Part shown: in pieces, positions 30,853 to 50,130 of the stretch
Layout of the letters: every line of letters starts with the position of its first letter
Position numbering within the stretch: the stretch's first letter is position 1
From: a virus
Direction: 5' to 3' (one strand)
IMG/VR virus record: IMGVR_UViG_3300021185_003351
Coordinates: 32,001-96,000 of that record
DNA: 64,000 nt
The notes under the pieces: generated by a model
The model's input: only the letters and a program-made list of their open reading frames with translations
Told to the model about the DNA's origin: nothing
Databases searched by the model: none
Program-made: the position numbers and the translations under genes

Positions 30853-30898
30853 TTTGTATTTGATCTTAGAAAATAAATTATTATAATATTTATATTAA

Positions 30899-30976: not shown

Positions 30977-33442
30977 ATGCCAAATTGGAAAAAGGTCGTT
31001 GTATCTGGAAGTGCGGCCAATCTACATTCTTTAAACGTATCAACTGATGTCACTGCATCAAATATAAGTTCTAGCGGCAATATATTCGGAAATTTATCTG
31101 AAAACTCATCCACATCATTTAAAACAGTTGTAGTAGATCCATCTACGGGTCAATTTTATAGAACAGGTTCATATGGCACCGGCGGTGGAGGCGGAGGAGG
31201 AAGTGCATTCCCATTTACTGGAGATGCTCAAATAACAGGATCATTAATAGTATCAGGAGCATTACAATTAGATTATAATGGTAATGACAATATAATTATA
31301 GGTTCTGGTTCTGGAGAAGTATTAGACTCTGGAACAAATAATATTATATTTGGTAATAATGCAGCAACTAGTTTAACTACAGGAGGTAGCAATTTAATAA
31401 TAGGTCATAGAGCTGGAAAAAGTACAGCATTAAATCAAGAAAGTGGAAATACTCTTATAGGTATAGGTGCAGGTGAAGATGGAACTTATGATGCAAATTA
31501 TGGATCTAATACATTTATAGGATATAATGCTGGTAAAAGTTCTGCAGCAATGTATAGCACATTTGTGGGATCTGGAGTAGGACAAGGAACTACTAGTTTT
31601 AGTGTTGCCATGGGAGCAAATGGAACTTTATCCTGTACAGCTGCCCAATCTGTTGCATTAGGATATGGTAGTCAAACAAATGGTACCAATAATTACAATG
31701 TATCTCTAGGTACATCAGCTATGCGATCAGGTAATGGTGGATCTCTAAACCAATATAATGTTGCATTAGGATATCAAGCTCAATACACAAGTTATAGACT
31801 TAACAATTCTATTTCAATTGGTGCTAAAGCAGCCTATGGAACAAGTTATGCAAAAGATGATATTTTTATAGGACATGAAGCAGTTTATAGTTATGTAGGA
31901 AATACTACAGGTCGTAATCTTATCATCGGATACCAAGCGGGATATGATTTAGGAGATGCAAGTACACATAATATTTTAATTGGAGAGGGAGTAGGAGCAG
32001 AAAATGTAGTTCTAGAAAAACAATTAAAAATAGGATCTGGATCTTTAATAACAATATCAGCTTCACTAGCAACAGGTGACATAATATTCCCAAGCACGGC
32101 ATCAGCAGACTATTTTGTAGGTGATGGATCTCAATTAACAAATTTACCAGCAGCATCTGCAGGATCAACAGCAGGTAGAGTAGTATTCACAACTACCAAT
32201 GGAGAATTAACTTCTGAAACTGGATTTACATATGATGCAACTACTGACAGATTAACAGTACCTAATTTAACTACCACAACATTTACCGCATCATTTATAA
32301 CATCATCTACAATTGAAACCTCAGGTTCAAATATATTTGGAGATGAAGCTGGAGTAGATATTCAAACATTAATAGGTACTACTAAGATGACCGGTAGTGC
32401 TCAAATTACGGGTAATACACAAATAACAGGATCATTATTAGTAGCAGGAGCTAATTCTGGTATTGCTCCTACCACTTCATCTCTTAAAATAGATAGTAAT
32501 GGATATTTTTATCATTTAGGTAGATACGTTGGAAATGCAACAAATTTTGCAAATAACCAATCTAATACTGTTATAGGTAATAATATAACTAGTGATGGAG
32601 ATTATTACAATACCATAATAGGAGAATCAGCAGGAGTAGGTAGTACAACTAATCAAACCGCAATAGGTAGAGGAGCTATAGCAAATGTTGCAAGTAGTAC
32701 TGCTATTGGGTCTACATCTAAAGCTTACGGTGTTAAAAGTACAAGTATAGGAATGGGTGCTGGTAGTACAACATCAAAGGGTTTAAATATAGGCTACTAT
32801 GCAAGAGGAACTGGAGCAAAAAATATTGTTTTAAATGCTTCTGAAGGAACTGTTGGACCTACTAAAGCAAATACCTTTGGTATTTACATGACTGGTACTA
32901 GTCCTAACTTTGAAATTGAAGCAACAGGTTCATCAACACTATCCGGATCATCTTTCACAATAGAAAAATCAGGTTCAACAGTATTCGAAGTAATAGGATC
33001 AGAAGGTACATTATTTTCAGTAGACGATGATTTAGATGGAACTATATTTACAGCAAACGATAGAACAGGTCTTCCAGTACTAGAAGCATCAGCTTCAGGA
33101 GAAGTTTACATAGGAAAGAATCCACAATCTTTATATACTACAGCTGTTATAAGCTCCACTACCGCAGATGTAACACAATCATTGTATGGATTGGATACAA
33201 GTTCTTATGGAGGAGCCTTCTTTGATTATATAGCACATTCTGGGTCTAATGCACGGGGTGGAACAGTCTCATCTGTATGGACTCCTGGTGGATCTGTTGT
33301 GTTCTCAGAAACAACTACAACTCATATTGGAGACACATCCAATTTAAATTTAGTAGTACACTTTTCTCAAAGTCAAGCACAATTAGCTTGTTATGCAGAT
33401 ACATCTCAATACAATATTAAAGTTATAACACGAGCAATATAA
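30977..33442 (+). CDS. Fibre protein with trimeric autotransporter-head-like (YadA-type) repeats
   Basis: Repeats of about 14-16 aa (NxxIGxxAG, SxAIG, NVALGYQA) and an MPNWKKVVVSGS N-terminus. Confidence 0.7.
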   Translation: MPNWKKVVVSGSAANLHSLNVSTDVTASNISSSGNIFGNLSENSSTSFKTVVVDPSTGQFYRTGSYGTGGGGGGGSAFPFTGDAQITGSLIVSGALQLDYNGNDNIIIGSGSGEVLDSGTNNIIFGNNAATSLTTGGSNLIIGHRAGKSTALNQESGNTLIGIGAGEDGTYDANYGSNTFIGYNAGKSSAAMYSTFVGSGVGQGTTSFSVAMGANGTLSCTAAQSVALGYGSQTNGTNNYNVSLGTSAMRSGNGGSLNQYNVALGYQAQYTSYRLNNSISIGAKAAYGTSYAKDDIFIGHEAVYSYVGNTTGRNLIIGYQAGYDLGDASTHNILIGEGVGAENVVLEKQLKIGSGSLITISASLATGDIIFPSTASADYFVGDGSQLTNLPAASAGSTAGRVVFTTTNGELTSETGFTYDATTDRLTVPNLTTTTFTASFITSSTIETSGSNIFGDEAGVDIQTLIGTTKMTGSAQITGNTQITGSLLVAGANSGIAPTTSSLKIDSNGYFYHLGRYVGNATNFANNQSNTVIGNNITSDGDYYNTIIGESAGVGSTTNQTAIGRGAIANVASSTAIGSTSKAYGVKSTSIGMGAGSTTSKGLNIGYYARGTGAKNIVLNASEGTVGPTKANTFGIYMTGTSPNFEIEATGSSTLSGSSFTIEKSGSTVFEVIGSEGTLFSVDDDLDGTIFTANDRTGLPVLEASASGEVYIGKNPQSLYTTAVISSTTADVTQSLYGLDTSSYGGAFFDYIAHSGSNARGGTVSSVWTPGGSVVFSETTTTHIGDTSNLNLVVHFSQSQAQLACYADTSQYNIKVITRAI

Positions 33443-34161
33443 TGGGAACAAGTTACTCTCCAAATATAGTAGAAGATGGATTAATATTTCAAGTAGATGC
33501 TGCAAATCAAAGATCATATCCTGGGAGTGGCACTACTGCTACTGATTTAAAAGGTCCGGCAGAAGGAACTTTATCCGCTGGAGCTAGTTTTAATTCTATA
33601 AACTTAGGAGCATTTCAATTCGATGGAATAGACGATCAATTGAATTTTGGGAATGCCGTATCAACTAATATTGCTAATGGTGAAGATTTAACTATAGATG
33701 CATGGATACGATATACTAGTGATACTGGCGGAGAATCTCAATATCCTATGATTTTTACTAGAAGAAGATCAGTTCAAAATCAATCATCTCTAACTAATTA
33801 TTATCTTTATTTACTCGACTCAACAACTTCCGGTGAGAGATCAATTAGATTCTTCACATCTTATACAGATGGAAATATTACTAGTGATCAAACTGTAAAA
33901 ATTAATACTTGGACTCATATATCAGTAACTTGTCAATCTGGACTTAATAATGGAACCTTTATGTATAAAGATACAGAACAAGTAGCTAATTTTAGAGCTG
34001 ATACTGCGGGAGCATCTAATTGTACTACAATAATAGGCGATTCTCCATATTCAAGTAACAATTTTCCAGGTCAAATAGCTAATGTAAAATTATATAATCG
34101 TGCTCTTTCGACTCAAGAAGTTAAACAAAATTACAATGCAATGAAAGCGAGGTTTAGATAA
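33442..34161 (+). CDS. LamG/concanavalin A-like lectin domain protein 1
   Basis: GLIFQVDAAN..SYPG, FDGIDD, TIDAWI, WTHI and LYNRALS..EV.QNYNA motifs. Confidence 0.85.
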   Translation: MGTSYSPNIVEDGLIFQVDAANQRSYPGSGTTATDLKGPAEGTLSAGASFNSINLGAFQFDGIDDQLNFGNAVSTNIANGEDLTIDAWIRYTSDTGGESQYPMIFTRRRSVQNQSSLTNYYLYLLDSTTSGERSIRFFTSYTDGNITSDQTVKINTWTHISVTCQSGLNNGTFMYKDTEQVANFRADTAGASNCTTIIGDSPYSSNNFPGQIANVKLYNRALSTQEVKQNYNAMKARFR

Positions 34162-34901
34162 TGGGTATAAGAAGAGGTTCTATATCAACTCCAATCATAT
34201 CGGATGGGCTAGTATTCAATATGGATGCTGCAAATAGGGCAAGTACTATGCCTAATACCGATACTACAACAACATTTAATACTGTAGATACTTCTATATT
34301 TGGTTCTATAATAACAGATGGTACTTGGGAAGCTGGACCACCGTTGGCTTTCGATTTTGATGGTAGCGATGGACATATACAGTTTGGTGTTCTTTCTTTT
34401 ATACGAAATGTTTCTGAATTTACTATTTCATTATGGGTTCAAATAAGTAATTTAACTAGTAATTATAGATTTTTTGGAAGTAGACAATCTAGTTCTCCAT
34501 ATGATGGTCTAGGTAGTGAAACTGGTAGCGGTGGTATGGCCGGAAAATTATTTTTTTATTCAATGGGTAATAATCAAGCATTTCCGGCAGTTGGTATAAC
34601 CATGGCTAATGAGGGAATAACTGCAAATAACTGGTTTTTATTTACATGTAGATATGGAAATTCTACACAAGAAATATTTGTAAATGGAAATCCCACAACA
34701 GTAACTCAAGGAAGCACAACAACTAATGTAGCAAGTACCACCGATAATAATTCTACAAATTTTTTGATAGGCGGAGATTCGATAAATTCAGCCGGAAAAT
34801 TAAATGGTAAAATAGGAAATTTTCAAATTTACAACCGTGCCTTATCAGCAACAGAAATCCTACACAACTACAATGCTTTAAAAGGAAGATTTGGGTTATG
34901 A
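34161..34901 (+). CDS. LamG-like lectin domain protein 2
   Basis: GLVFNMDAAN, FDFDG, FTISLWV and IYNRALS motifs. Confidence 0.85.
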   Translation: MGIRRGSISTPIISDGLVFNMDAANRASTMPNTDTTTTFNTVDTSIFGSIITDGTWEAGPPLAFDFDGSDGHIQFGVLSFIRNVSEFTISLWVQISNLTSNYRFFGSRQSSSPYDGLGSETGSGGMAGKLFFYSMGNNQAFPAVGITMANEGITANNWFLFTCRYGNSTQEIFVNGNPTTVTQGSTTTNVASTTDNNSTNFLIGGDSINSAGKLNGKIGNFQIYNRALSATEILHNYNALKGRFGL

Positions 34902-35626
34902 AAATAGGTAGCATAACAACAGGTATTATAGCGGATGGGCTAGTATTCAATATGGATGCGGCAAATAGAGCAAGTTATCCTAAAACTGGTACTACTGTTA
35001 CTGATACTATAGATTATGATATAAATACTAATAACACAGGGACATTTAGTAATAATAACAGTAGTACATTCTTTAGTACAGATAAGGGTGGAATATTTCT
35101 TTTTGATGGAATAGATGATTATATAACAGTTAATGGAAGTACTAATTCTGGACTAAATAGACCAGGAATAACAAACCAAATAACATTAGAAGCCTGGTGT
35201 TATACTAGAACTTTTAATAATAATTATGAAAGAATAATAGCACGAAGAATAGTAAATACTCCTTTACCTTATATGTTTGGATTTCATACTGTGTCAGGTA
35301 ATAAATATGATCTTTATTTAAGTGGTAACAGTAGTTATGGGCCTGCATCTTTAAACTCTACTACTAACGTAATATTAAATGAGTGGGTACATTTTGTAGG
35401 TACTTCTGATAATTCTACAAGAAAAATATATTTAAATGGAGTATTAGATAACTCAGATTCATATTCATCTGGGATATTTTCTACAGATATAAATCTTCAA
35501 ATAGGAGCCCAATTAAGCGGTTACAATTATAATGGAGATATAGGTGCTGTTAGAATATATGATCGCGCCTTATCAGCAAACGAAGTTTTACGCAACTACA
35601 ATGCTTTAAAAGGAAGATTCGAATAA
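34898..35626 (+). CDS. LamG-like lectin domain protein 3
   Basis: FDGIDDY, ITLEAW, WVHFVGT, IYLNG and IYDRALS motifs. Confidence 0.87.
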   Translation: MKIGSITTGIIADGLVFNMDAANRASYPKTGTTVTDTIDYDINTNNTGTFSNNNSSTFFSTDKGGIFLFDGIDDYITVNGSTNSGLNRPGITNQITLEAWCYTRTFNNNYERIIARRIVNTPLPYMFGFHTVSGNKYDLYLSGNSSYGPASLNSTTNVILNEWVHFVGTSDNSTRKIYLNGVLDNSDSYSSGIFSTDINLQIGAQLSGYNYNGDIGAVRIYDRALSANEVLRNYNALKGRFE

Positions 35627-36351
35627 TGGGATTAGCACACGGAACAAATATAGTAAAAGATGGATTAGTATTTTATATGGACGCTATGAATTTAAGAACA
35701 TGGTCTGGTCCTCCTTCATATTCAGTAAATTCATTAGTAGGAAGTGTAACGGGATCTATTTTTAATGATACCTCTGGCAGTTTTGGAAATAGAAATAGTT
35801 TTGATTTTGATGGAACTGATGATCGTATAACAACGAATATAACTGGAAATGCTCTATTAGGAAGTAACAACCCATATACTTTTTCAGCTTGGATTAAACC
35901 ATCAAACCCTGGAAGTTCATCAACCCAAGCAATTTTTGGAGGATATAGCCATTGGTCAAACTTTCATTTTTTTGGATTTTTTGTTAAAAATGGTTATGCT
36001 GGCTATTATTATTCTGGTGGCGGTGGTTTATGGGGTCCAAAGTGGGATACAGCAGCAGATACTCCTGTAACAGAAAATGTTTGGCAAAATATTACTTATA
36101 CTTGGACTGGTACTACTGACCAAACAAGAAAAATTTATATAAATAATGTTTTAAAAAAAACTCAAACTGAATCTGGTGGAGGTGGTATAGTAAGTGCGGT
36201 TTTAATGAATGTAGGATCTTTTAGATATATGTCCCAAAATAATTCACATTTTCAAGGTGATATAGGACCAATACAATTATTTAATAGAGCATTATCAACT
36301 CAAGAACTTATCCAAAACTACAACGCATTAAAAGGTAGATTTAGTTTATAA
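35626..36351 (+). CDS. LamG-like lectin domain protein 4
   Basis: FDFDGTDD, YTFSAWIKP, WQNITYT and FNRALS motifs. Confidence 0.85.
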   Translation: MGLAHGTNIVKDGLVFYMDAMNLRTWSGPPSYSVNSLVGSVTGSIFNDTSGSFGNRNSFDFDGTDDRITTNITGNALLGSNNPYTFSAWIKPSNPGSSSTQAIFGGYSHWSNFHFFGFFVKNGYAGYYYSGGGGLWGPKWDTAADTPVTENVWQNITYTWTGTTDQTRKIYINNVLKKTQTESGGGGIVSAVLMNVGSFRYMSQNNSHFQGDIGPIQLFNRALSTQELIQNYNALKGRFSL

Positions 36352-36398
36352 TCATATTTATATTAAAGTACTTTTTGGATAGGGAAAAAAAGAACTAG

Positions 36399-39071
36399 AT
36401 GGCAAACGAATTCATAATAAAACACGGCTTTCTCTCGAAAGGCAATTCTCAAGTAACGGGATCATTAGGCATCTCCGGCTCGGTTGATATTAGTCTTCCT
36501 TCAGGTTCTGCATTTTCTATTAACGAACCAGATAATGACCAACAAGGAAGATTAGATTTTTCATTTACACAAGGTGATCCAGTATTAGAAATAGGAAGTA
36601 GATCTAATATAGCTTATTTAAATTTAAGAAAAGGCTTTACTGGAGATGCTTTTAAAATTGGTAGTGACGGAACTTTTGCAGTAGATGGAACAACTACAAT
36701 TCAATTAAATTCGTCTCAATTTAAACCAAATGCAACTAATACTATTGATTTAGGAGTATTTAATAGAAGATTTAAAGATGTATTTTTATATAATGGGGCT
36801 AAATTAGGCTGGAGTGCTAATACATCTGCAGATCTAGTTGCTTTAAAACATATTGTAGGAACTAATACTTTACAAGTAACAGGATCATCAGATATAATAT
36901 TAGATGTAAAAGGAGTAGTATCAGCTAGTAAATTCACAGCAAACTCTGGAAGTTCAGCAACTTTACCTGGATATTCATTTCATCATGCATCTGGAACTGG
37001 ATTATATTCTCAAGCAGCTGGATATCTTCAATTACAAGTTAATGGTGGCGGATCGCCAGAATTTGAATTAACTACAGGTCAAGCATTATTTAGAGTACCT
37101 ATATCATTAAACAACAATGAATTATACAATGTTAGTAGAATACGTAATCTATCAAGTATAACAGGATCTAATTCTGGAAACACTTTAAATGTATCTGCTT
37201 CATTAGATTTAGTTGGAGATTTATCTATAAGTAAAACAACTGGTACTGGTGCACCAGGCACAGGAACAACTCATTCAATAGCAGTAACTGTTTCAAATCC
37301 AGGAAGTGGTAATAAATATTATTTAGATAATGTATTAACTGATTCAATAGTAATGAATGCTGGTGATGCTTATAAATTTGATCAATCAGCTGCTAGCAAC
37401 AGTACACATCCATTTAGACTTTCAACAGGTACAGATGGATCAGGTACAGCTCCATATGAAGTAGGAGTAACATATGGTGTAGGATCACCAGGAAATGCAA
37501 ATGCATATACTCAAATATCAGTTACCACATCAACAACAGCCCCATTATATTATTATTGCACTCAACATGGTGGAATGGGAGGTTCCGGACAATTAACAGT
37601 TGATTCTGGTTCATTAAATCCAATGGCTGGATTTGCTAATATTACTGGATCTACAAATTTAACTGGATCATTAAATTTAGCAGATAATACAAAATTAAAA
37701 CTAGGAGATTCTGGTGATTTAGAAATTTATCATGACGGTAGTAATAGTTATATAGATGAAGTAGGTACAGGAGCATTATTTTATAGAGGTGGTACACAAA
37801 CATTTCAAAATGCAACTGGTACCAAAACGATGTTAACCTTAAATGCTGCATCTTCTGTAGATTTAAGATTTAACAATTTAACAAAATTATCCACAACAAA
37901 TACCGGTATTTCTGTTACAGGCGAAATTACCGCATCCGGAGCTATTAGTTCAAGTGGCATTATATCAATGGCAACTGCTTCTATTGGTGGAGGATTGTTT
38001 ACATCTGCTTCATTAGCTGCAGGAGGAGGAGGAACTACAGTAGTTGCTAATCCAGGTGGATCTCCAGGAACAGCATTATCAACAATTACAATAGGAGCAT
38101 CTGATTTTTCTGTTGGCGGAGGATCTGGATTTCCATTTGCAGGCGATGGAGTTATATCAGGATCATTATTAATATCGAGTTCTAATGCAGGTGGGGTATC
38201 TACCGCATCAATGACTTTGCAAGGTTCTGGTTCAACAATATTTGAAATACAAGGTTCTCAAGGCCAATTATTTTCAGTTACTGATGATTTAATACACGAT
38301 GTATTTAATGTTTCAGACATATCAGGAGACACATTATTAAAAGTTTCAGGGTCAGGTTTAGTCGAAGTTCCAATAGGACCAATAAGCTCTTCAGGATTAT
38401 TATTTATATCAGCATCAGAAAATGCAGGACAAAGCACATATAAAACATTGGTGCAAGATCCAGCAACCGGAAGAATTTATCATACTGGTTCTTATGGCAC
38501 TGGAGGCGGAGCTGGTGGTGGAGATACATACACCCTACAAGCAGAAGCTAAAAGTGGCACATCTGTACCTTTAAAATTAGACGCAGCTTCTGGAACAGAC
38601 TCTACTGTAAACTTAACAGAAGGCTCAAATATTACATTAACTAGAAATAGTGCAAACCAAATAACCATAGCTAGTGCAGCCGGCGGTGGAGGAGGCGAAT
38701 GGAAAGATTTAGGAACTACTATTACTTCTTCAAAAGATGTTCAAATAACAGGTTCATTAGTAGCTTCTGGATCAGTAGTTAATTTTGCATCTGCATCATC
38801 CGTTATATTACCTGCAGAAACAGTACCATTAATTAATCCTAAAGTAGAATATTTTACAATTTCAGAAATAACTGCTTCTGGAACTACAGTACCATTACCT
38901 AATTCATTAACGTTTGTATCTTCATCCGCATTTGAGTACTTGGAAATATTTATAAATGGATTAAGGTTACGTTATGATATAGATTTTGCACCAATGTCTA
39001 CTAGCACAATAAAATATTTTGTAACAATACCAAGTGGATCTGAAGTCACATATAAATCATTAAGGAGATAG
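36399..39071 (+). CDS. Mosaic fibre protein with a cupredoxin-like domain
   Basis: Fibre beta repeats, HPFRLS...LYYYCTQHGGMG, and a C-terminal LEIFING domain. Confidence 0.7.
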   Translation: MANEFIIKHGFLSKGNSQVTGSLGISGSVDISLPSGSAFSINEPDNDQQGRLDFSFTQGDPVLEIGSRSNIAYLNLRKGFTGDAFKIGSDGTFAVDGTTTIQLNSSQFKPNATNTIDLGVFNRRFKDVFLYNGAKLGWSANTSADLVALKHIVGTNTLQVTGSSDIILDVKGVVSASKFTANSGSSATLPGYSFHHASGTGLYSQAAGYLQLQVNGGGSPEFELTTGQALFRVPISLNNNELYNVSRIRNLSSITGSNSGNTLNVSASLDLVGDLSISKTTGTGAPGTGTTHSIAVTVSNPGSGNKYYLDNVLTDSIVMNAGDAYKFDQSAASNSTHPFRLSTGTDGSGTAPYEVGVTYGVGSPGNANAYTQISVTTSTTAPLYYYCTQHGGMGGSGQLTVDSGSLNPMAGFANITGSTNLTGSLNLADNTKLKLGDSGDLEIYHDGSNSYIDEVGTGALFYRGGTQTFQNATGTKTMLTLNAASSVDLRFNNLTKLSTTNTGISVTGEITASGAISSSGIISMATASIGGGLFTSASLAAGGGGTTVVANPGGSPGTALSTITIGASDFSVGGGSGFPFAGDGVISGSLLISSSNAGGVSTASMTLQGSGSTIFEIQGSQGQLFSVTDDLIHDVFNVSDISGDTLLKVSGSGLVEVPIGPISSSGLLFISASENAGQSTYKTLVQDPATGRIYHTGSYGTGGGAGGGDTYTLQAEAKSGTSVPLKLDAASGTDSTVNLTEGSNITLTRNSANQITIASAAGGGGGEWKDLGTTITSSKDVQITGSLVASGSVVNFASASSVILPAETVPLINPKVEYFTISEITASGTTVPLPNSLTFVSSSAFEYLEIFINGLRLRYDIDFAPMSTSTIKYFVTIPSGSEVTYKSLRR

Positions 39072-39074
39072 GCT

Positions 39075-39359: not shown

Positions 39360-39360
39360 T

Positions 39361-42300: not shown

Positions 42301-45300
42301 TTACTCAAAAATACAGACAATTTTGAATTTGGTGAAATAACAATTTCAGGAAGTTTACTTAGAAATGGATTTATGGATCCAACATCTAGTATTGGCGAAT
42401 GGAATGAAAACTCATTTGGTGTTACATGGGGAAATACCGTTTATGAAGGTCCTCCAATGGCAACATGGGATGGTTATGGATATCAAGGTCGACCTGGTTA
42501 TAATAGGCCTTATCCATATGGCTCAGGATATTCAATTCATAATCGATATTATGGGGTACTAAACAACACCGGCAAGATTAGAAAAACAGGAACCCTTTTA
42601 TCTTCTAGATCAGATCAGCTTCAATATAAGCATAGTAATCCAGGAACTCCTTATAGATATTCTACTAGAGGTTATGGTAAAACTATAGAAGATGATCCCG
42701 CTAGCGGAAATTGGAGTATAGATGGATGGATGAATGATTTTACTTCTAGTTATTATAAAGTAACTCAATCTATAGAAGATAAACGTCTTCAATTTCCAGA
42801 TAAATTTGGAGGAAGTGGTACATTGCGAGTTACTATTGATGATAATACTGCATTAGCATATGTAGGAGATGGTAGAGGAAATGAACTATTACTTCAAGGA
42901 CATTATTCATATCAAGGTAGAGGCCCAATCGGATTACAGCTAAATAGATATGGATCAATACATTCAGTAAATATTAAAGAAAGATATCAACAATTAATAT
43001 TAGATACTACCAATTCTTTTAGTAAACGTGATAAAATTTATGAATCTAGATTGTTATATGACCATGACCCTAGTAAAGAAGTTAATTTTATAGGTACTTT
43101 AGTAACAGATGCTAAAGGCCATAAAAATTTATTATGGGAATATATGAGGACCAAAGGCAATACTGACATCCTTCCATATATGTTCGGAGCATGTAATCAA
43201 GGAACAACCGCTGCAGGTAATACTTCTACTAACATTAATGCTGGGGGATATTACAATCATATTTATGGTTCAAATTATAATGCATTAATACCTAAAAATA
43301 ATATAGGTACCAGTCGATTTAATAGATATCAAGCAAATGATAATTTTTATGTTATATATGATTTAGGCACCCAAGTAACATTTGATACCGTAGGAATGAT
43401 ATTTGCTAAAGATAATTATGGTTCTGAACATGTTACTAACAATCAAATGAACAATGTTGAATTTCAAGTATGTGATGATGTAGGAGTTGCGTCTCCTGCC
43501 TGGGAAATAGTTCGTGCAAAAGAAAATGATTTGCGATATTCAAATTATAGAGGTGGAATAAGATTTTATACATTTCCTTCTGGCTCAGTAAATAAACGAT
43601 ATGTAAGATATCATAGTAGAGGAGGAACAAATAGTACAGCATTTGCAATGCATTCACATTTTGGCTTATATAATTTTTCAGGATCGTGTGCAGATTCAAA
43701 TACATTGGATGCATCATCAATAGCAGGAGGATTTGCAGATCAGTTCGGCTCGCCTACAGCATCAATGTGTCAAATAGAGTTAGCTAGCACTAAAAACTGG
43801 AAAACCGGCGATATGATTTATTTCTGGTCTAAGCAAATGAATTCTAGCGGAGTATTTTATGATGAAGGATATAATACTATATCATATTATAACACTAATA
43901 ACATAACTGGATGGCAAGCAGGCACAACACCTGAAGCTCAAATACTTAATGGAAAATGGCCTATTTACACTATTACAAACATTCAAGGTAACATAGTAAC
44001 ATTAGATAGACCGGTAACACAAATGTTTATAGATGCTGGCACAATAGCTTACAAATACAATAGAGGTAAGGTTACACTTAAAGCACCTCGTCAAATGATA
44101 TTTAATCTAGGATTTTTCTATAACAATTATGTTCGAAGAACAATACGTAATATAACAGGAATTAATGCAGTTCCTCACAATTACAGTGGCCAATACTATG
44201 GAATGTATTCTATTGAAGATGCTGGTATAATGCCATTCCAAGGTAATGTAAATGCAGATGGTTGGTATCTACCCCATGGTTTATATAGAAATATGTATAC
44301 AAGTTGGATATATCCTGAAGTAAGTCATGGTAGATGGGATCAGTTTAGAGCCAAAAAATGCTTTAATTATCATACCGAGTATTCTGCTGCATCTAATGGA
44401 ATATTAGGAAGTTTAAGCGTAAATAGACCAAATGAAGTTATAAGTTTTTGCAAATCTCCTCATCAACCTTCTTATAATACTAATATATATGGAGGATGGG
44501 AATATGGACAATATTCTGCAAGAGGACATGTTTACTATCAAAATAATTGGGCTAAAGGTGACAGATACAATGGTATTGTACCAAGAAGAGTATCACCTAG
44601 ATGGGGAACTAATGATGATCATTTAATACATATAGGAGATCTTGTAACTGTAGATAATCATCAAGCAAGCGTCGGAGGATGGTGGGATAGTAGTAGAAAT
44701 CCTGGATATAATGATAAAATTTATAAAACTAATAATAATACTAGAGATTATAATTTAATTCAATATTTTACATGGTGGAATCCATATGCAACTAATCCTA
44801 AAACTAATCCATCTCATTTAAGACACAATGATTATACCGAATTCCCAACAAATAATAATGGAAGTTATTTTGATAAAGATGACGTTCCAATTTTATATCG
44901 AAAAAATAAACAATCACTTTTCCCAGGCAGAGACATGATTGCTGCTAAAATGCATTATTATGGTATAACACATATTGTTCCAACTAACACACACGCTGAT
45001 GATAAAATGTATGAATTACATGTATGTCCAAATTATGAGTTTAGTATGACATATTCAACCGGAGCCAGTTACCTAAGCCTTCCGTTTAAAGCAGAATTTA
45101 CAGTTCTAGAAGACGCAGATGTTCGTTTAGATATTAGTATGATATATAAAATGATGGCATCTCAAGTATATAATTTTGGCGAAACTTATAGCAATAGTAC
45201 CCTTTATAATAATTTCGGTAATAGTATGCCTTGTATTTTTGTTGAAAATTTAACTACCCAAGAAATGATATATAATGAACCTATATATAAAATGGATAGC

Positions 45301-45633
45301 AGCATAAACATGCAAGAAATATTTAGTCTACCTGCAGGTCATTATAGAGTTGCTTTTAGAGTCAGCAGCGTATATCAATCTGCTAATCCTGGACTAGTAA
45401 TGTTTTTCAAAGATTTAAAATTTAAATTGGTAACTACTAATAAAAATAATATTGTAGTAATACATAATAATTGGGATATGGTAAAAATGCTAGAACAACC
45501 AGGAAGAGGAGAAAATTATTCAAACGTTAATAATTTACCATATACAGAAAATACAGGTCCAAATTCAGTAGTAAGACAAGCAAATAATTTAACAAATACC
45601 AAAACAATTAAATTTAATAAAATTAAACTATAA
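39361..45633 (+). CDS. Giant Tyr/Asn/Gly-rich virion protein with a discoidin (F5/8)-like segment (2090 aa)
   Basis: N-terminal NWIGGVVPGPDD motif. VIYDLG...FDTVG...FQVCDD...W...KRYVRY resembles F5/8 type C domains. Confidence 0.6.
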   Translation: MATIIAKLNPVDSTWNPLDPNNWIGGVVPGPDDIARFYTYTTNATYETGYYYINKNRGYGNNAVYDRNQFHTAIAFGNGQGEGFYTRSFWEQEYSRDFFTRNWSGSFDPTASVAGAGYNWTQGSSYTYGSPGTFNSNNSSIYTHYGDYYAQTGYQYKGSYKSMNLYYDNIWNYNYGSPRTDTPAYGPMYYRFKCYVFRVENLTSTSLTIDDVTISETDTETYATKNRAFGTTKAAHAAANPGSEVLTDRIVDLFTGSALHIDNGGKWQIWGPHNGRQPYYNNRTYLNSNDFFTIAMYTSSDSYSPSVSDTNLYTANYSTALAGKYHLGLFTASAAGINDSLSKIDFPLTVMGNGEPGVYATEGTSSFRFSTRFGNEVTAKTASYTNINNQNDQNGGWSYSQYTTSSHGASAFLEGTLPSYYSWQGVGPGNLGRIRWKHDGTYSYDKFLIHPTEDYDPNKPGSKPGRRQGQGLRIDPTFSTWTTSSRITHPIFSKQPYTWLENGNIAGSELVGGYGYTNHMYKQGQIQYWELTGSQEWNVGRIEMGRFTHFHVKDNAHIVLHDMQGDSNGTSTSQAPTIDFEDHGLKSTLYITDEATIEISSSRTAYWNNDEAGIYLRRNSTSLIISGAANYSSSKLTENVSAGSSTLSIDNLSNTFAPGDIISVQSTASFKLTFPAAREHSLDYVDQNDPTTWYSGSYEEMYHKSSGGRNATYMNGTTLPPAHKDSVVTAFASFEKPSGMEFDNPVHTDEITVIAATSSNTATIRKFFGKEGEIHHDMGLYNKQEFVDTFPSGGAPIFTGDKRVVLVDSNHKKFVSGDQLEISGSVYTVLHNTTYLSQSLFRDFSRSDNPSLDDMFYMRLESFSGSSIWPIDVNADGVINTSTEDETHFERIHKNKLLITGSYQGSRAMLERYGNIGVPMLKNSGSNNGYQALQIDPTLSYYWQHSMNLNYDNLNNDSYNYRYRYYVNNNYTTWYGSANYLLKNTDNFEFGEITISGSLLRNGFMDPTSSIGEWNENSFGVTWGNTVYEGPPMATWDGYGYQGRPGYNRPYPYGSGYSIHNRYYGVLNNTGKIRKTGTLLSSRSDQLQYKHSNPGTPYRYSTRGYGKTIEDDPASGNWSIDGWMNDFTSSYYKVTQSIEDKRLQFPDKFGGSGTLRVTIDDNTALAYVGDGRGNELLLQGHYSYQGRGPIGLQLNRYGSIHSVNIKERYQQLILDTTNSFSKRDKIYESRLLYDHDPSKEVNFIGTLVTDAKGHKNLLWEYMRTKGNTDILPYMFGACNQGTTAAGNTSTNINAGGYYNHIYGSNYNALIPKNNIGTSRFNRYQANDNFYVIYDLGTQVTFDTVGMIFAKDNYGSEHVTNNQMNNVEFQVCDDVGVASPAWEIVRAKENDLRYSNYRGGIRFYTFPSGSVNKRYVRYHSRGGTNSTAFAMHSHFGLYNFSGSCADSNTLDASSIAGGFADQFGSPTASMCQIELASTKNWKTGDMIYFWSKQMNSSGVFYDEGYNTISYYNTNNITGWQAGTTPEAQILNGKWPIYTITNIQGNIVTLDRPVTQMFIDAGTIAYKYNRGKVTLKAPRQMIFNLGFFYNNYVRRTIRNITGINAVPHNYSGQYYGMYSIEDAGIMPFQGNVNADGWYLPHGLYRNMYTSWIYPEVSHGRWDQFRAKKCFNYHTEYSAASNGILGSLSVNRPNEVISFCKSPHQPSYNTNIYGGWEYGQYSARGHVYYQNNWAKGDRYNGIVPRRVSPRWGTNDDHLIHIGDLVTVDNHQASVGGWWDSSRNPGYNDKIYKTNNNTRDYNLIQYFTWWNPYATNPKTNPSHLRHNDYTEFPTNNNGSYFDKDDVPILYRKNKQSLFPGRDMIAAKMHYYGITHIVPTNTHADDKMYELHVCPNYEFSMTYSTGASYLSLPFKAEFTVLEDADVRLDISMIYKMMASQVYNFGETYSNSTLYNNFGNSMPCIFVENLTTQEMIYNEPIYKMDSSINMQEIFSLPAGHYRVAFRVSSVYQSANPGLVMFFKDLKFKLVTTNKNNIVVIHNNWDMVKMLEQPGRGENYSNVNNLPYTENTGPNSVVRQANNLTNTKTIKFNKIKL

Positions 45634-45645
45634 TATTTATAATAA

Positions 45646-46830
45646 ATGAATTTTGATATATTAAATAATAAACCACTAGAATTCTTCAATCAAGATGGCG
45701 AATTAATGGGTAAAATATTCATCTCCGGATCAACTGGTGATTTATATTTAACTCCCGTATCTGGTAGTGATGGTGATGTTATTCTAGGAAATAGAGATAC
45801 AGTTGGCGATGTTGAAATAGGATTACCATCTGCAGAAACATCATTAAAATTAATGGGCGGCGGAATCATATCTGCAAATGGAAATACTTTAACTATAGGA
45901 GATGTTGCTGCTGGTGATTCTGTTATAGTAAACGGCCCTATAACTGCATCTAATATATTATCTGCTTCATATGCGTTAACTGCATCACATGCACTTAATA
46001 GTAGTGGAGGAGGCTCTGGAATATTTGAAGCAACTGGATCTATATTTGCAACCACAAATGTTTTAGAAGTCACCGGATCAATGACGCTAATTAACACAGC
46101 TTCAAATTCAACCTCATCAAACACACTATCTATAGAAGGATCAGGATCAGTAAGTGGATCTGGAATATTTGACGTTCGTGGATCTGTTGGACAACTATTT
46201 GAAGTTGCAGACGGATTAGATGGAGTATTGATGTCCGTTAATGATATATCAGGTATTCCTATATTAACAGTATCATCATCAGGTAATGTTATTTTAGCAG
46301 AAGGATCAACATTAATAGGAACAGCATCATTTGCATCTACTAGTCCAGCAGGAGCACCTTTTCCTCATACTGGTACAGCTCGTATTGATGGTAATTTAGA
46401 TGTTACTGGATCTGGAGATGATATATTCAAAGTAAGATCAAGATCCGGATCATTGTTTTCAGTTGATGATGGATTAGATGGTATCTTAATGTCAGTTAAT
46501 GACATATCCGGATTACCATTATTTGAAATTTCATCTTCTGGTAATGTAGAATTAATTGAAGGTAATATATCTGGATCTGCAGCATCAACCGCATCATTTG
46601 GAAAACTAGAATCATATGGTGGATTACATGTAGAAAGCTCCGGTTCAACAGTATTTGAAGTAGTAGGATCTGAAGGATCATTGTTTGCAATAGACGATTC
46701 ATTGTCTGGATCATTGTTTGCAGTAACAAATAAATCAGGTATTCCTAGATTTGAAGTGTTTTCAGACGGCAAAATAGAAAAACAAGGTAATAATATTCAA
46801 GACGAATCATTTACATGGTTCATGGCATAA
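45646..46830 (+). CDS. Fibre-associated protein with three internal repeats
   Basis: Three copies of FxVxGSxGxLFxVxDxLxGxLxxVxxxSGxP. Confidence 0.65.
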   Translation: MNFDILNNKPLEFFNQDGELMGKIFISGSTGDLYLTPVSGSDGDVILGNRDTVGDVEIGLPSAETSLKLMGGGIISANGNTLTIGDVAAGDSVIVNGPITASNILSASYALTASHALNSSGGGSGIFEATGSIFATTNVLEVTGSMTLINTASNSTSSNTLSIEGSGSVSGSGIFDVRGSVGQLFEVADGLDGVLMSVNDISGIPILTVSSSGNVILAEGSTLIGTASFASTSPAGAPFPHTGTARIDGNLDVTGSGDDIFKVRSRSGSLFSVDDGLDGILMSVNDISGLPLFEISSSGNVELIEGNISGSAASTASFGKLESYGGLHVESSGSTVFEVVGSEGSLFAIDDSLSGSLFAVTNKSGIPRFEVFSDGKIEKQGNNIQDESFTWFMA

Positions 46831-46831
46831 T

Positions 46832-47542
46832 ATGAAAAAATACGGATTAAATAATGGATATATTGGTAAAGATCGTTTAAGATCATTTGCTTCTGGCATA
46901 ATCTCACAACATAAACATGCAACTCTTAGGACAGCCGGGTTAATGAAACTAGCTGGATCAGGTATAATCCAAGAAGGTCTTCGAATAAATTATAATATTG
47001 ATTCTGTTACAGACACATATCCTGAAACATGGACTGATTTAAGCGGAGCTGGAATACATGCAACAATATTGGGAGCACCGCAGTTAACAGACGACGGTGG
47101 TGTAAATTATTTAGCTTTTGATTCTATAACTGATGGATTTGAACCGTCATCTGGATATTCATTTACTAATGGTACTGGAACCGTTGCATTGGTTATGAAA
47201 ACAGTTGATGTACAAGGCTTGTTTTTTGGTAATTTTTTGGGAGCTTATAGATCCGGAAATAAATTTTATAATAACGGATTTGGATCTCCTACTTTTCATA
47301 TGGACACTGATCAAAAATCTAATATCTATGATCATTTGCGTACTGGTAATTGGCATTATGTAGAATTTAAAAATATACAAAATTCTTCTACGTCTACTGC
47401 TACATGGCGATTTTCCAAATATGGCAGTTATGAAATACAGTGTGATTTAAGAGCTGTAATAGCATATGATCACAACTTAACCGCTGAAGAAAGCCTACAA
47501 AATTACAATTATTATTATAACAGCGGTTATTTATCTGATTAA
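46832..47542 (+). CDS. Divergent LamG-like protein 5
   Basis: EGLRINY, WTDLSG, YLAFD, WHYV and YDHNLT.EE..QNYN motifs. Confidence 0.7.
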   Translation: MKKYGLNNGYIGKDRLRSFASGIISQHKHATLRTAGLMKLAGSGIIQEGLRINYNIDSVTDTYPETWTDLSGAGIHATILGAPQLTDDGGVNYLAFDSITDGFEPSSGYSFTNGTGTVALVMKTVDVQGLFFGNFLGAYRSGNKFYNNGFGSPTFHMDTDQKSNIYDHLRTGNWHYVEFKNIQNSSTSTATWRFSKYGSYEIQCDLRAVIAYDHNLTAEESLQNYNYYYNSGYLSD

Positions 47543-47566
47543 TATTTATATATAAAGAAATGAATT

Positions 47567-47953
47567 ATGGCAACAACATATCATAACGCAGGTTTAAATA
47601 TATCACAATCAACAACCATCAACATGAATTATTCTGCATCTGGAGATTTTTTAACTGCAGGTTCTGGCGAAACATATATATTAAAAAATATTCAAATTGC
47701 AAATACATCAGAACCGGTTGCAGGTACTTATTATGATACAAATATAACTGCAAGATTTATAGATTTTAGTACTTCAACGACACATAGTTTAGCAAAATTT
47801 ATATCACTACCAAAAAATTCGTCAATTGATATATTGTCAGATAATTTAGTTTTAGAATCAGGAGATAAAATACAATTACAAATAACAGGATCTTCTGAAG
47901 CTACTATAAATTATGAGGTAAATGCAGTAGGAAGTTATTTGAAAATTACATAA
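47567..47953 (+). CDS. Small beta-rich virion protein
   Basis: IQIAN...LVLESGDKI pattern typical of small phage structural proteins. TATTTATA upstream. Confidence 0.55.
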   Translation: MATTYHNAGLNISQSTTINMNYSASGDFLTAGSGETYILKNIQIANTSEPVAGTYYDTNITARFIDFSTSTTHSLAKFISLPKNSSIDILSDNLVLESGDKIQLQITGSSEATINYEVNAVGSYLKIT

Positions 47954-47962
47954 GGGTTCACC

Positions 47963-48676
47963 ATGGCAATTCGTAGAGGTGAAATAATTACTAGAATTAT
48001 AGAAACCGGTTTAACTCATAATATAGACGCTTCAAATCGTGTAACATATCCTAGATCAGGAGTCAAAGTTTATAATACTGTAGACACAGACATTACCGGA
48101 TCATTTATTAATGATGTAGCATATAACAGTGTATCGCCAGACAATTTTCAATTTGGATTAGATGGAGTAGATGATATAATTAGATTTGAATCTCATTTTG
48201 CTGCTTATGGACAAACAGACATCACATTGTCATATTGGTTTAGATTATTAGGATCTCCTGCATCAGTTTGGCACGGGTTGTCCAACGAAATTGCTACTCA
48301 ACTACCTTTTAGATCAAGAATATTAATCAAAGAAAATTTAGCTCAGTTGTTATACACATTAACTTTAAATGGACAGAAATCAATTACTCCTATTAGTTTT
48401 TCTTTGAATACATGGCATAATGTAGTTATAACCAAAGACAGCATAGTTGGTACCAAAGTATATTTAGACAATGTATATAAAGGTGGTCACTCAACGGAAA
48501 CAGGTGCTATAACTGGAACTAGTAGCACAACAGTAGGAGGTACTGACGTTGGACGTGGTTATGAATCTGGATATTACATGAACGGAAACATGGCCAGTAT
48601 ACATGTTTACGACAGAGCATTATCAGCAACAGAATTAACTCATAATTATAATGCAATGATTGGGAGATTTTCATGA
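47963..48676 (+). CDS. LamG-like lectin domain protein 6
   Basis: DASN..YP, DGVDD, TLSYWF, WHNVV and YDRALS motifs. Confidence 0.85.
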   Translation: MAIRRGEIITRIIETGLTHNIDASNRVTYPRSGVKVYNTVDTDITGSFINDVAYNSVSPDNFQFGLDGVDDIIRFESHFAAYGQTDITLSYWFRLLGSPASVWHGLSNEIATQLPFRSRILIKENLAQLLYTLTLNGQKSITPISFSLNTWHNVVITKDSIVGTKVYLDNVYKGGHSTETGAITGTSSTTVGGTDVGRGYESGYYMNGNMASIHVYDRALSATELTHNYNAMIGRFS

Positions 48677-49413
48677 GTGGAAGAGCCGGCGAAATTATTA
48701 CGGATATTGTTGAAGATGGACTAGTGTTTAATATGGACGCTGCTAATAGAGCAAGCTATTCTAAAACTGGGACTTCTGTCAAAGATACTTTAAATAATTC
48801 ATCTGGAACTTTAACAAATGGATCATCTTTTCAATCTACATTACCTTTAAGTTTTGATTTTGATGGAGCTGATGATGAATTAATTTTTTCAAATAATACT
48901 GCTATTAATAGTTTAGGCACTTTAACTACAGATTTAACATTATCTATATGGTTTAGAAATGAAGGAGCATCTAATGTAGAACAAAGAATATTTGGTATGT
49001 CGACTAATCAAAGCTATACAGGAGGAAGATCAATTTCTGCAGTAATTTATTCAAATAATTTACAATCATATTATCGAGACAATAATGGATATAAATATAG
49101 AAATATTAGCTTTTCAGGTCAACAAAATGAATGGCTTAGTTATACAATTGTATTTCATTCAGGTGATGAAAATGCTACTACTCAATATTTAAATAACGTA
49201 GCTTACTCCGGGATGACAGCAGGACAATCAGGCGTAATATTTCCATCTTCATTTAATTTTGCAGATACTACAATATATCTAGGAAACAATTCTTCGCATT
49301 CAACGCTAGCTTTAGATGGTCAAATTGGCTGTTTTCAAATGTATACAAGAGCATTAAGTGATAATGAAAGAACACACAATTACAACGCATTAAGAAGTAG
49401 ATTTGGAGTATGA
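48673..49413 (+). CDS. LamG-like lectin domain protein 7
   Basis: GLVFNMDAANRASY, FDFDGADD, TLSIWF and YTRALS motifs. Confidence 0.85.
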   Translation: MSGRAGEIITDIVEDGLVFNMDAANRASYSKTGTSVKDTLNNSSGTLTNGSSFQSTLPLSFDFDGADDELIFSNNTAINSLGTLTTDLTLSIWFRNEGASNVEQRIFGMSTNQSYTGGRSISAVIYSNNLQSYYRDNNGYKYRNISFSGQQNEWLSYTIVFHSGDENATTQYLNNVAYSGMTAGQSGVIFPSSFNFADTTIYLGNNSSHSTLALDGQIGCFQMYTRALSDNERTHNYNALRSRFGV

Positions 49414-50099
49414 GATTAGGAGAAATTAAAACGGATATCATTGAGAATGGGCTAGTATTCAACATGGATCCAGCTAATAGAGCAAGTTATCCTAAAACTG
49501 GTACTATTGTTACTAATACAATAAACAACAGTACTAGTACCTTAACCAATGGCCCAACATTTTCGGACAGTAATAGTGGAATTATGCACTTTGATGGAAA
49601 TGATGATTATATTAATACTCCATCCAGCTGGACATCATTAGGAACCGGAGATTTTACAGTTTGTAGTTGGTTTAGAGTAGAAGAGGTGCCAGCTGGGAGT
49701 GGTTTTGTTTGGGTAATGGTCGATGCAGGCGGTAATTCTAATTATGCAAATTTAAGAGTTCGATTAAACAATCAAATTCAATTTCAAGCTAGACAAGGAG
49801 GAGGAGGAAGTGTTGAACTAACTTATGGTACTACTTATAGTACAGATACCTGGTATCAAGCAACATGCACAAGAACAGGTACTACAGGAACATTATACCT
49901 TAATGGTATTAATCCTTCATCTCAAACTAATTCTGAGTTTGGTGTAGATCTAGGAGATGAACTTTATATAGGAAATTGGCGAATATTTTCATATGCTTTA
50001 AGTGGGGACATAGGACCAATTCATATCTACAACCGAGTATTATCAGCAAATGAAGTCCTACACAACTACAATGCTTTAAAAGGTAGATTTGGAGTTTAG
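49410..50099 (+). CDS. LamG-like lectin domain protein 8
   Basis: GLVFNMDPANRASYP, FDGNDDY, FTVCSWF, LYLNG and YNRVLS motifs. Confidence 0.87.
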   Translation: MRLGEIKTDIIENGLVFNMDPANRASYPKTGTIVTNTINNSTSTLTNGPTFSDSNSGIMHFDGNDDYINTPSSWTSLGTGDFTVCSWFRVEEVPAGSGFVWVMVDAGGNSNYANLRVRLNNQIQFQARQGGGGSVELTYGTTYSTDTWYQATCTRTGTTGTLYLNGINPSSQTNSEFGVDLGDELYIGNWRIFSYALSGDIGPIHIYNRVLSANEVLHNYNALKGRFGV

Positions 50100-50130
50100 G
50101 TTATATTTATAATAAACCAAAGAAACTACA

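What the first reader, a model, noticed from the sequence alone, without database searches (positions are those of the whole stretch)
33442..50099. Two arrays of LamG lectin cassettes with near-identical DNA ends and divergent cores
Seen: eight paralogues of about 230-246 aa in two clusters (33442-36351 and 46832-50099). 5' ends match at DNA level: 34201-44 vs 34932-75 is 42/44 identical, and a perfect 31-mer is shared by 34964-94 and 49476-506. 3' ends also match: a 28-mer at 34858-85 equals 50056-83, and a 27-mer at 34865-91 equals 35593-619. The central ligand-binding regions are barely alignable, and most genes are chained by TAATG/ATGA overlaps. Inference: the conserved ends act as recombination handles for swapping, adding or deleting glycan-binding heads. 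This would give a receptor library that needs no reverse transcriptase or invertase, with the conserved termini docking onto a shared fibre.
Basis: partly seen in the sequence, partly recalled or inferred. Interest (0 to 1): 0.8.

Follow-up and report, generated by a model that had tools for sequence, protein, structure and literature searches.

The report
Swappable lectin-gene arrays behind phage fibres
A marine T4-like phage carries rows of small sugar-binding-type (LamG) genes behind its tail-fibre genes; related phages have swapped, gained and lost the variable middles by recombining in the conserved gene ends, a new case of a known way for phages to vary attachment proteins.

Summary
Observation confirmed. 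All four DNA matches are exact. There are seven clear LamG (PF13385) paralogues plus one marginal one (B1) in the window. Three more (array C) and one fused copy lie elsewhere in the 173-kb T4-like phage genome.

Interpretation partly supported.
- Within this genome the ends are not homogenised. Identical residues share a codon in 51-52% of cases, against 50-60% expected from codon usage. Only the A2/A3/B4 trio shows a marginal excess (P about 0.02).
- Array content is far from fixed among relatives. Contigs 89-100% identical downstream carry four different last heads, or lack B4.
- B1, B3 and B4 cores are replaced in a close relative.
- The core of array-C cassette C2 is 99% identical, between sharp borders, to a cassette in a phage that is otherwise 70-79% identical.
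- About 19 of 20 block ends inside cassettes lie within 54 nt of a gene end.

No reverse transcriptase or site-specific recombinase was found, and a RecA/UvsX-type recombinase is present. This points to ordinary homologous recombination between co-infecting relatives, as in T-even gp38 adhesins, not a programmed library. Docking onto a fibre and glycan binding remain untested. This scan noted similar arrays on other genomes.

The parts
30977..33442 (+). 821-aa fibre-like protein that leads array A. Its stop overlaps the A1 start (TAATG).
   Evidence: PHROG virion structural and tail spike hits. It shares a repeated motif with the 890-aa and 394-aa proteins. Junction.
33442..34161 (+). LamG cassette A1 (239 aa)
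   Evidence: PF13385, E 2.7e-18
34161..34901 (+). LamG cassette A2 (246 aa)
   Evidence: PF13385, E 3.9e-19. Belongs to the A2/A3/B4 trio with a marginal excess of DNA identity at the ends.
34898..35626 (+). LamG cassette A3 (242 aa), the modelled representative
   Evidence: PF13385, E 7.9e-26. AF2 pLDDT 85.5, pTM 0.89. Foldseek matches lectin-like jelly rolls. An 80%-nt orthologue sits last in the single array of L003.
35626..36351 (+). LamG cassette A4 (241 aa)
   Evidence: PF13385, E 3.6e-16
36399..39071 (+). 890-aa tail-fibre protein between the arrays
   Evidence: PHROG tail fibre hits
39361..45633 (+). 2090-aa protein of unknown family between the arrays
   Evidence: No Pfam or PHROG hit
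45646..46830 (+). 394-aa fibre-like protein that leads B1
   Evidence: Shares repeat motifs with the 821-aa and 890-aa proteins. Its 3' end is 100% identical in L045 up to the B1 start.
46832..47542 (+). B1, a divergent and marginal cassette (236 aa) with a long N-terminal extension
   Evidence: No Pfam hit. 10 bits against an HMM built without it. AF2 pLDDT 66.9 with ConA-like Foldseek hits. Only 50-65% nt identity to L045 although the flanks are 100% identical.
47567..47953 (+). 128-aa ORF that leads B2-B4. It is not a LamG protein and is conserved in L003 and L045.
47963..48676 (+). LamG cassette B2 (237 aa), the one head conserved in L045 (94% nt)
   Evidence: PF13385, E 3.9e-13..
48673..49413 (+). 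LamG cassette B3 (246 aa). Its core is replaced in L045. In L069 its 3' end is joined directly to the DNA downstream of B4.
   Evidence: PF13385, E 6.6e-9. High identity to L045 ends at 48709, 36 nt into the gene. L069 junction.
49410..50099 (+). LamG cassette B4 (229 aa). It is present in L070, absent in L069, and replaced by three other heads in L045, L066 and L067.
   Evidence: PF13385, E 1.5e-22. Identity to relatives resumes at 50081, 18 nt before the gene end.
34800..35011 (+). Example of a conserved junction block (C end of A2 plus N end of A3). It is 75% identical to 49312-49523 (the B3/B4 junction).
   Evidence: the repeat finder family D4. Crossovers among relatives fall in such blocks.
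50131..50592 (+). 153-aa gene downstream of array B, used as the anchor to compare relatives
   Evidence: 93-100% aa identity in five relatives. DNA is identical from about 50082 onward.

Best explanation
The window holds two late-operon arrays of stand-alone genes for LamG/concanavalin-A-like lectin-fold proteins. They lie just behind tail-fibre-type genes in a 173-kb marine T4-like myovirus. A third array lies elsewhere in the genome.

Each roughly 235-aa protein has a constant frame and a hypervariable middle. The frame consists of:
- an N-terminal strand motif, GLVFxxDAANxxSYPxxGTT;
- an FDGxDD strand;
- a last strand plus C-terminal helix, IYNRALSxxEvxxNYNALKGRF.

The paralogues within this genome are old. 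The DNA similarity of their ends is mostly a by-product of protein constraint and AT-rich codon bias.

Because successive genes abut or overlap, the C end of one and the N end of the next form a conserved junction block of about 200 nt between variable cores. When related phages co-infect a cell, the phage's own homologous recombination (a RecA/UvsX-type recombinase is encoded) crosses over in these blocks. The outcomes are replacement of a single head, deletion or insertion of one cassette unit, and movement of heads between arrays.

Shown here: the arrays, the fold, the saturation of synonymous sites, the variable array content among relatives, and the position of the breakpoints.

Inferred: the proteins are virion-borne accessory adhesins that bind host surface glycans, and the turnover is driven by selection on host range.
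For: Fold and family:
- PF13385 hits for 7 of 8 ORFs.
- AF2 model pLDDT 85.5, pTM 0.89.
- Foldseek matches the trans-sialidase lectin domain, the TeNT/BoNT Hc-N domain, and phage ConA-like proteins including S-PM2 virion structural proteins.

Phage context:
- Tail sheath at 51000-53462 and fibre hits nearby.
- In Flavobacterium phage immuto, two homologous genes annotated 'structural protein' follow a tail-fibre-like gene.

Old paralogues: the same-codon fraction at identical residues is 0.51 (N end) and 0.52 (C end), against 0.50-0.60 expected.

Exchange among relatives:
- Window versus L045 is a mosaic: about 100% identity at the end of the 394-aa gene, 50-65% across B1, 85-98% through the 128-aa gene and B2, 40-50% in the B3 core, 90% at the B3/B4 junction, 30-50% in the B4 core, and 98-100% from 50078 onward.
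- Five contigs are identical from 50082 onward but carry B4, three other heads, or the B3 end fused directly to the downstream DNA. That indel is 686 nt and is bounded by a shared 12-mer.
- C2 is 99% identical to L040:14990-15691 from genome 151327 to 151959 (6 mismatches in 621 nt). The flanks are 40-65% identical.
- The L040 cassette combines 61 nt of the C1 leader and N end (100% identical) with the C2 core.
- Across 79 loci and 130 cassettes, about 19 of 20 independent block ends inside cassettes lie within 54 nt of the start or 53 nt of the stop.

Recombination machinery:
- No reverse transcriptase and no serine or tyrosine recombinase.
- A RecA/UvsX-type gene is present.

Head diversity: 130 cassettes give 114 core clusters at 50% aa identity.
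Against: - All relatives are metagenome-assembled contigs, so linkage across adjacent variable cassettes could be mis-assembled.
- No direct evidence shows that these proteins are in the virion, bind glycans or affect host range.
- Array C lies outside the structural module, next to an HNH endonuclease gene. This fits less well with simple pairing to a neighbouring fibre.
- One block end lies in a core (L044 8924).
- HSP ends are imprecise by roughly 10-15 nt.
Confidence: 0.72

Rival explanations
1. Plain old tandem duplication and divergence. The ends are conserved only because they are the core of the fold. The arrays are static, and the DNA matches are a by-product of protein constraint and codon bias.
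For: Synonymous sites at the ends are saturated within the genome. The longest runs are near the expectation from codon resampling. The same end motifs are conserved across the whole family, including fused multi-unit proteins.
Against: Array content differs sharply among contigs that are 89-100% identical in the flanks. A 99%-identical head sits in an otherwise 70-79% identical phage. Point divergence cannot produce unalignable cores next to identical flanks.
Confidence: 0.1
2. The mosaic pattern is an artefact of metagenome assembly. Assemblers jump between co-occurring strains at the shared conserved ends and produce chimeric arrays.
For: All compared sequences are IMG/VR metagenomic contigs. 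Repeated conserved junctions are places where assembly graphs branch.
Against: - The alternative heads come from different samples (five different IMG sample numbers for the B4 position).
- Exact matches between non-orthologous ends are at most 31 nt in this genome. This is short for the k-mer lengths I believe metagenome assemblers finish with (my own knowledge, not checked here).
- At the L040 C1/C2 joint, the transition segment matches neither parent exactly; it differs from C2 at 3 positions.
- Each alternative head is itself a real sequence whatever its linkage.
Confidence: 0.08
3. A programmed diversification system. The arrays would act as a within-lineage receptor library that is actively rearranged each generation or at high frequency through the conserved ends, possibly helped by the HNH endonuclease next to array C.
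For: - There are three arrays with a common frame.
- An HNH endonuclease gene sits directly upstream of array C.
- A2, A3 and B4 show a marginal excess of DNA identity at their ends (P about 0.02).
- Partial N-end sharing occurs between cassettes of one array in relatives L099 and L106.
Against: - There is no global excess of synonymous identity.
- Every cassette is a complete gene with its own start codon, and all lie on one strand.
- No silent or promoterless donor copies were seen.
- No reverse transcriptase or site-specific recombinase is encoded.
- B4 is 100% identical in L070, and B2 is 94% conserved in L045.
Confidence: 0.07

Closest known systems
T-even (Straboviridae) distal tail-fibre adhesins gp37/gp38: recombination between conserved motifs swaps specificity (Tetart et al. 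1998, as cited and extended by Trojet et al. 2011, PMC3157838)
   Same: Both occur in T4-type phages, in small adhesin-type genes next to fibre genes. [quoted passage not shown] The result is chimeric or replaced specificity determinants without a dedicated enzyme.
   Different: - The fold is unrelated: LamG jelly roll here, glycine-rich-motif polyglycine core in gp38. No gp38 family hit appeared.
- The unit exchanged here is the whole core of a stand-alone gene, or a whole gene.
- The genes come in arrays of 3-4, and up to 5 in a row in relatives, at several sites per genome.
- Receptor binding and fibre attachment are not shown here.
Pfam PF13385 Laminin_G_3 / concanavalin A-like lectin-glucanase proteins of phage virions (for example S-PM2 virion structural proteins and the Flavobacterium phage immuto 'structural protein' pair)
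   Same: Same domain family and fold. About 31% aa identity over 96% of A3 to S-PM2 and immuto ORFs. In immuto, two tandem copies directly follow a tail-fibre-like gene.
   Different: This genome has 11 stand-alone copies in three arrays. The comparative evidence for cassette turnover at the conserved ends was not found in the papers I could search.
Hypervariable host-recognition clusters of marine T4-like myophages (pelagimyophages and cyanomyophages; Zaragoza-Solas et al. 2020, PMC7029224)
   Same: A non-syntenic island inside the structural region contains fibres and carbohydrate-binding domains, including concanavalin A domains.
   Different: That work describes island-level variability. 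It does not describe arrays of LamG genes or breakpoints in their conserved ends.
Diversified lectins of Streptomyces umbrella toxin particles (PMC13274773; bioRxiv 10.1101/2025.04.24.650519)
   Same: Analogy only: a set of diversified lectins used together to target different cell-surface glycans (abstracts).
   Different: Bacterial toxin particle, not a phage. I made no homology or assembly comparison here and read only the abstracts.

Membership tests
Pfam PF13385 Laminin_G_3 (ConA-like lectin/glucanase superfamily) | Sequence score above the curated gathering cut-off (27.6 bits) | tested here: met
   Seven of eight window ORFs score 36.5-91.4 bits. B1 has no hit. Eleven places in the whole genome score above the cut-off.
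Pfam PF13385 Laminin_G_3 (ConA-like lectin/glucanase superfamily) | Beta-sandwich jelly-roll fold | tested here: met
   A3 AF2 model pLDDT 85.5, pTM 0.89, with 15 strands. Foldseek probability 1.00 to the trans-sialidase lectin domain, TeNT Hc-N and ConA-like phage proteins.
Pfam PF13385 Laminin_G_3 (ConA-like lectin/glucanase superfamily) | B1 (46832-47542) belongs to the same family | tested here: inconclusive
   No Pfam hit. 10 bits, E 0.04, against a family HMM built without it; only the C-terminal motif aligns. The AF2 model (pLDDT 66.9) hits ConA-like proteins at E 3e-8, but its alignment consisted mostly of LamG cassettes.
Lectin (carbohydrate-binding protein) | Binds a glycan | not testable with these tools
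   Fold only. No ligand site was identified.
Phage virion / receptor-binding accessory protein | Present in the particle, attached to a fibre or the baseplate | not tested
   Indirect evidence only: location behind fibre genes, and homologues annotated as virion structural in S-PM2 and immuto records.
T-even gp38-type adhesin system | Homology to gp38 | tested here: not met
   No gp38 family among the Pfam or PHROG hits. The fold is different.
T-even gp38-type adhesin system | Natural exchanges with crossovers in conserved motifs flanking hypervariable segments | tested here: met
Diversity-generating retroelement | Reverse transcriptase, with a template repeat near the variable gene | tested here: not met
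   No RVT_1 match in the 173-kb genome.
Invertase / shufflon-type switching (Gin, Cin, Min, Rci) | Site-specific recombinase and inverted cassettes | tested here: not met
   No Resolvase or Phage_integrase match. All cassettes are complete genes on the + strand.

The most novel reading that the evidence does not exclude
Each virion carries several different stand-alone lectin heads at once. They would be plugged in through the constant N-terminal strand and C-terminal helix onto the fibre proteins that lead each operon, or onto each other, as in the fused 2- to 18-unit relatives. The arrays would then be a combinatorial, multivalent host-recognition kit. Its heads would be drawn from a population pool of more than a hundred types and re-dealt by recombination in the junction blocks, a phage counterpart of bet-hedging with diversified lectins.
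Probability: 0.3. Interest if true: 0.7.

Novelty: new variant of a known kind. Interest (0 to 1): 0.5.

Why it matters
Host range in abundant marine phages is poorly understood. This locus gives a concrete, sequence-defined unit of variation: a roughly 630-bp lectin head between two constant motifs, with clear natural examples of replacement, loss and transfer.

This makes several things practical:
- tracking head types in viromes as markers of phage-host matching;
- testing in cultured relatives, such as Flavobacterium phage immuto, whether head identity sets host range;
- using the constant frame to display different binding heads.

It also shows that a negative within-genome test for gene conversion does not exclude conserved ends acting as crossover sites between genomes.

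Tried and rejected
- Megablast of the 18-kb region against isolate phage genomes found no match.
- The metagenome-contig scan with the 153-aa anchor gene gave only the contig already held.
The 91%-identical A3 orthologue P0001, which sits on contigs up to 52.8 kb, could not be placed in context.
- L004, whose flanks are 89% identical, has a 575-aa fibre in place of the 821-aa one and then a gene resembling part of the 890-aa protein. This hints that array A is absent there, but the contig ends too soon to say.
- DGR, invertase and integrase mechanisms were rejected for lack of the enzymes.
- Papers on LamG arrays in phages were sought with five term sets and none was found. The library lacks many subscription journals, so this is weak evidence of novelty.
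- Model coordinates are not exposed, so I could not check whether the N-terminal strand and the C-terminal helix touch in 3D.
- No multimer prediction was available to test docking on the fibres.


Full report
**What the window is.** The window is bases 32001-96000 of a 172,973-bp IMG/VR virus record. It is about 31% G+C, and nearly all genes are on one strand. A tail sheath gene lies at 51000-53462 (PHROG phrog_23, E 3e-65). The closest isolate sheaths are those of Microcystis phage Mel-JY01 (50.7% aa) and Flavobacterium phage immuto (47%). It is a T4-like myovirus from marine samples. Earlier notes of this scan suggest a flavobacterial host; I did not test that.

**Checking the observation.**
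- Eight ORFs of 229-246 aa sit at the stated places.
- Seven pass the Pfam Laminin_G_3 cut-off.
- The eighth, B1 (46832-47542), has no Pfam hit and scores only 10 bits against a family HMM built without it. Its mediocre AF2 model (pLDDT 66.9) does resemble ConA-like phage proteins. I count it as a marginal member.
- Six of the nine junctions in and around the two arrays are TAATG or ATGA overlaps.
- The genome holds three further cassettes in a third array (array C, genome 150563-152642) and a LamG domain inside a 526-aa protein.

**Is the DNA similarity of the ends more than protein constraint?** I aligned the 11 paralogues, back-translated to codons and asked how often two genes use the same codon at positions with the same amino acid.
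- The observed fraction is 0.51 at the N ends and 0.52 at the C ends. Genome or family codon usage predicts 0.50-0.52 and 0.58-0.60.
- Synonymous sites at the ends are therefore saturated.
- Resampling synonymous codons 1000 times gives a longest in-register run of 23-24 +/- 4.5 nt. The observed 31 nt has P = 0.06-0.08. Three pairs with runs of 25 nt or more have P = 0.01-0.02.
- The 42/44 windows have P = 0.02.
- All of this excess comes from one trio: A2, A3 and B4. The signal is marginal.

**What relatives show.** I fetched related loci with the flanking genes and with A3 itself. Scanning them with a family HMM gave 130 stand-alone cassettes in 79 loci, in tandem runs of 1 to 5.

L045, a close relative, is a clean mosaic against the window:

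| Window region | Identity to L045 |
|---|---|
| End of the 394-aa fibre gene, up to the B1 start | 100% |
| B1 | 50-65% |
| 128-aa gene, B2 and first ~40 nt of B3 | 85-98% |
| B3 core | 40-50% |
| B3/B4 junction | 90% |
| B4 core | 30-50% |
| From 50078 onward | 98-100% |

Five contigs from different samples are identical to the window from 'TAGATTTGGAGTTTAG' (about 50082) onward but differ upstream:
- L070 has B4, 100% identical.
- L045, L066 and L067 each have a different head.
- L069 has the last 83 nt of B3 (98.8% identical) joined directly to the downstream DNA. One 686-nt cassette unit is missing, bounded by a 12-mer shared by the B3 and B4 ends.

**A transferred head.** Cassette C2 of array C (genome 151273-151977) matches L040:14990-15691 with 6 mismatches in 621 nt, from 151327 to 151959. 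Identity drops to 40-65% on both sides. The borders lie in the LDAAN motif and the NYNAM motif. L040 is otherwise only 70-79% identical to this genome.

The L040 gene carries 61 nt identical to the leader and first codons of C1, followed by the C2 core. It looks like the product of a crossover between the N ends of two neighbouring cassettes. In L040 this block lies in the array next to the sheath module. In this genome it lies 70 kb away.

Similarly, the A3 orthologue of L003 (80% nt) is the last cassette of a single array that abuts the genes found downstream of array B here.

**Where the breakpoints fall.** I merged stringent high-identity blocks between all loci and listed the block ends that are not contig ends.
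- After removing duplicates and blocks inside uniformly similar gene pairs, about 20 independent ends fall inside cassettes.
- Nineteen lie within 54 nt of the start or 53 nt of the stop. One lies in a core.
- The two end zones make up about 15% of a cassette, so this concentration is far beyond chance.
- Most ends lie more than 25 nt inside the coding sequence. They are in the conserved motifs, not merely at gene borders.
- Some partial matches in other loci end near nt 200-215, about where the FDGxDD motif lies by my estimate of position.

**The protein.**
- The AF2 model of A3 (pLDDT 85.5, pTM 0.89) is a beta-sandwich.
- The N motif forms strand 15-19. The C motif forms the last strand (212-221) and a terminal helix (227-241).
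- Foldseek finds the lectin-like domain of trypanosomal trans-sialidases, the Hc-N jelly roll of clostridial neurotoxins, and many phage ConA-like proteins, among them S-PM2 virion structural proteins.
- Across 61 cassettes, the top-residue frequency is about 0.6 at residues 11-30, 0.7-0.8 at 221-242 and 0.15-0.4 between.
- The family is large: at least 900 stand-alone homologues of 133-424 aa in public metagenomes.
- Units also occur fused without linkers, from two per protein up to at least 18 in a 4464-aa protein.
- The constant ends are thus a property of the whole family. They may be fold elements or contacts between units as much as docking pieces.

**Mechanism.**
- The genome has no reverse transcriptase, serine recombinase or tyrosine recombinase.
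- It encodes a RecA/UvsX-type recombinase.
- All cassettes are full genes on one strand.
- The simplest reading is ordinary homologous, partly homeologous, recombination between co-infecting relatives, with the conserved junction blocks as the only shared sequence between different heads.
[quoted passage not shown] 2011, PMC3157838, citing Tetart et al. 1996 and 1998).
- What differs here is the fold, the exchange of whole gene cores and whole genes, and the multi-copy arrays at several genomic sites.

**Function.** Function is inferred, not shown.
- The arrays follow fibre-type genes: the 821-aa protein with A1-A4, the 394-aa protein with B1, and the 128-aa ORF with B2-B4.
- Homologues are annotated as structural in S-PM2 and immuto records.
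- Cores cluster into 114 types at 50% identity among 130 cassettes. That is the diversity expected of host-recognition parts.

**Caveats.**
- All relatives are metagenomic assemblies. The alternative heads are real sequences, but linkage between neighbouring variable cassettes needs long reads.
- The scan's earlier notes report the same kind of LamG cassette array with recombining ends on other genomes: phages, giant viruses and Patescibacteria. I reached my reading before seeing them and did not test them.

**Verdict.** This is a new variant of a known kind and is of moderate interest.

Noticed in passing
genome 149988-150539 (outside the window; L095:3989-4540): A 183-aa HNH endonuclease gene (PHROG E 6.5e-16) lies 24 nt upstream of array C, in a region of small non-structural genes. 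A free-standing homing-type nuclease next to a movable lectin array could promote its transfer during co-infection.
   Followed up: partly
window 30887-30894, 36355-36362, 45634-45641, 47543-47550, 50104-50111 and about 13 more: The + strand octamer TATTTATA (reported as TATAAATA on the minus strand) sits a short distance upstream of many start codons. These include the genes that lead each lectin array and, outside the window, C1. It looks like the phage's late-gene promoter element and would divide the region into operons: 821+A1-A4, 890-2090, 394+B1, and 128+B2-B4.
   Followed up: partly
window 34880-34897, 35608-35625, 48655-48672, 49392-49409: The codons for the conserved C-terminal K/R-G-R-F (AAAGGAAGA, GGGAGA, TGGAGT) form purine-rich Shine-Dalgarno-like sequences 5-15 nt before the next cassette's ATG. 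The 3' end of each gene may therefore carry a second, translational-coupling constraint.
   Followed up: no
window 33003-33034, 38260-38291, 46445-46476, 46673-46704: The 821-aa, 890-aa and 394-aa fibre-type proteins share a repeated G(S/T)LFSVxD-type motif (44-50% aa identity over 50-65 residues). L003's fibre looks like an 821-type body joined to a 394-type C end at this motif, and L003 has a single lectin array.
   Followed up: partly
L142:3456-16850 (same gene in L143): A 4464-aa protein in a 170-kb viral contig consists of at least 18 consecutive LamG units of this family, the extreme fused form of the cassette array. L125, L122 and L124 carry proteins with two units abutting without a linker.
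   Followed up: no
window 39361-45633: A 2090-aa protein between the two arrays has no Pfam or PHROG hit at all.
   Followed up: no
L099:7303-8004 vs 8714-9394; L106:7914-8681 vs 8678-9400: In two relatives, two cassettes of the same array share 86-87% nt identity over only their first ~200 nt, which by position ends near the FDGxDD motif. This is a sign of within-array partial exchange that is not seen clearly in this genome.
   Followed up: no
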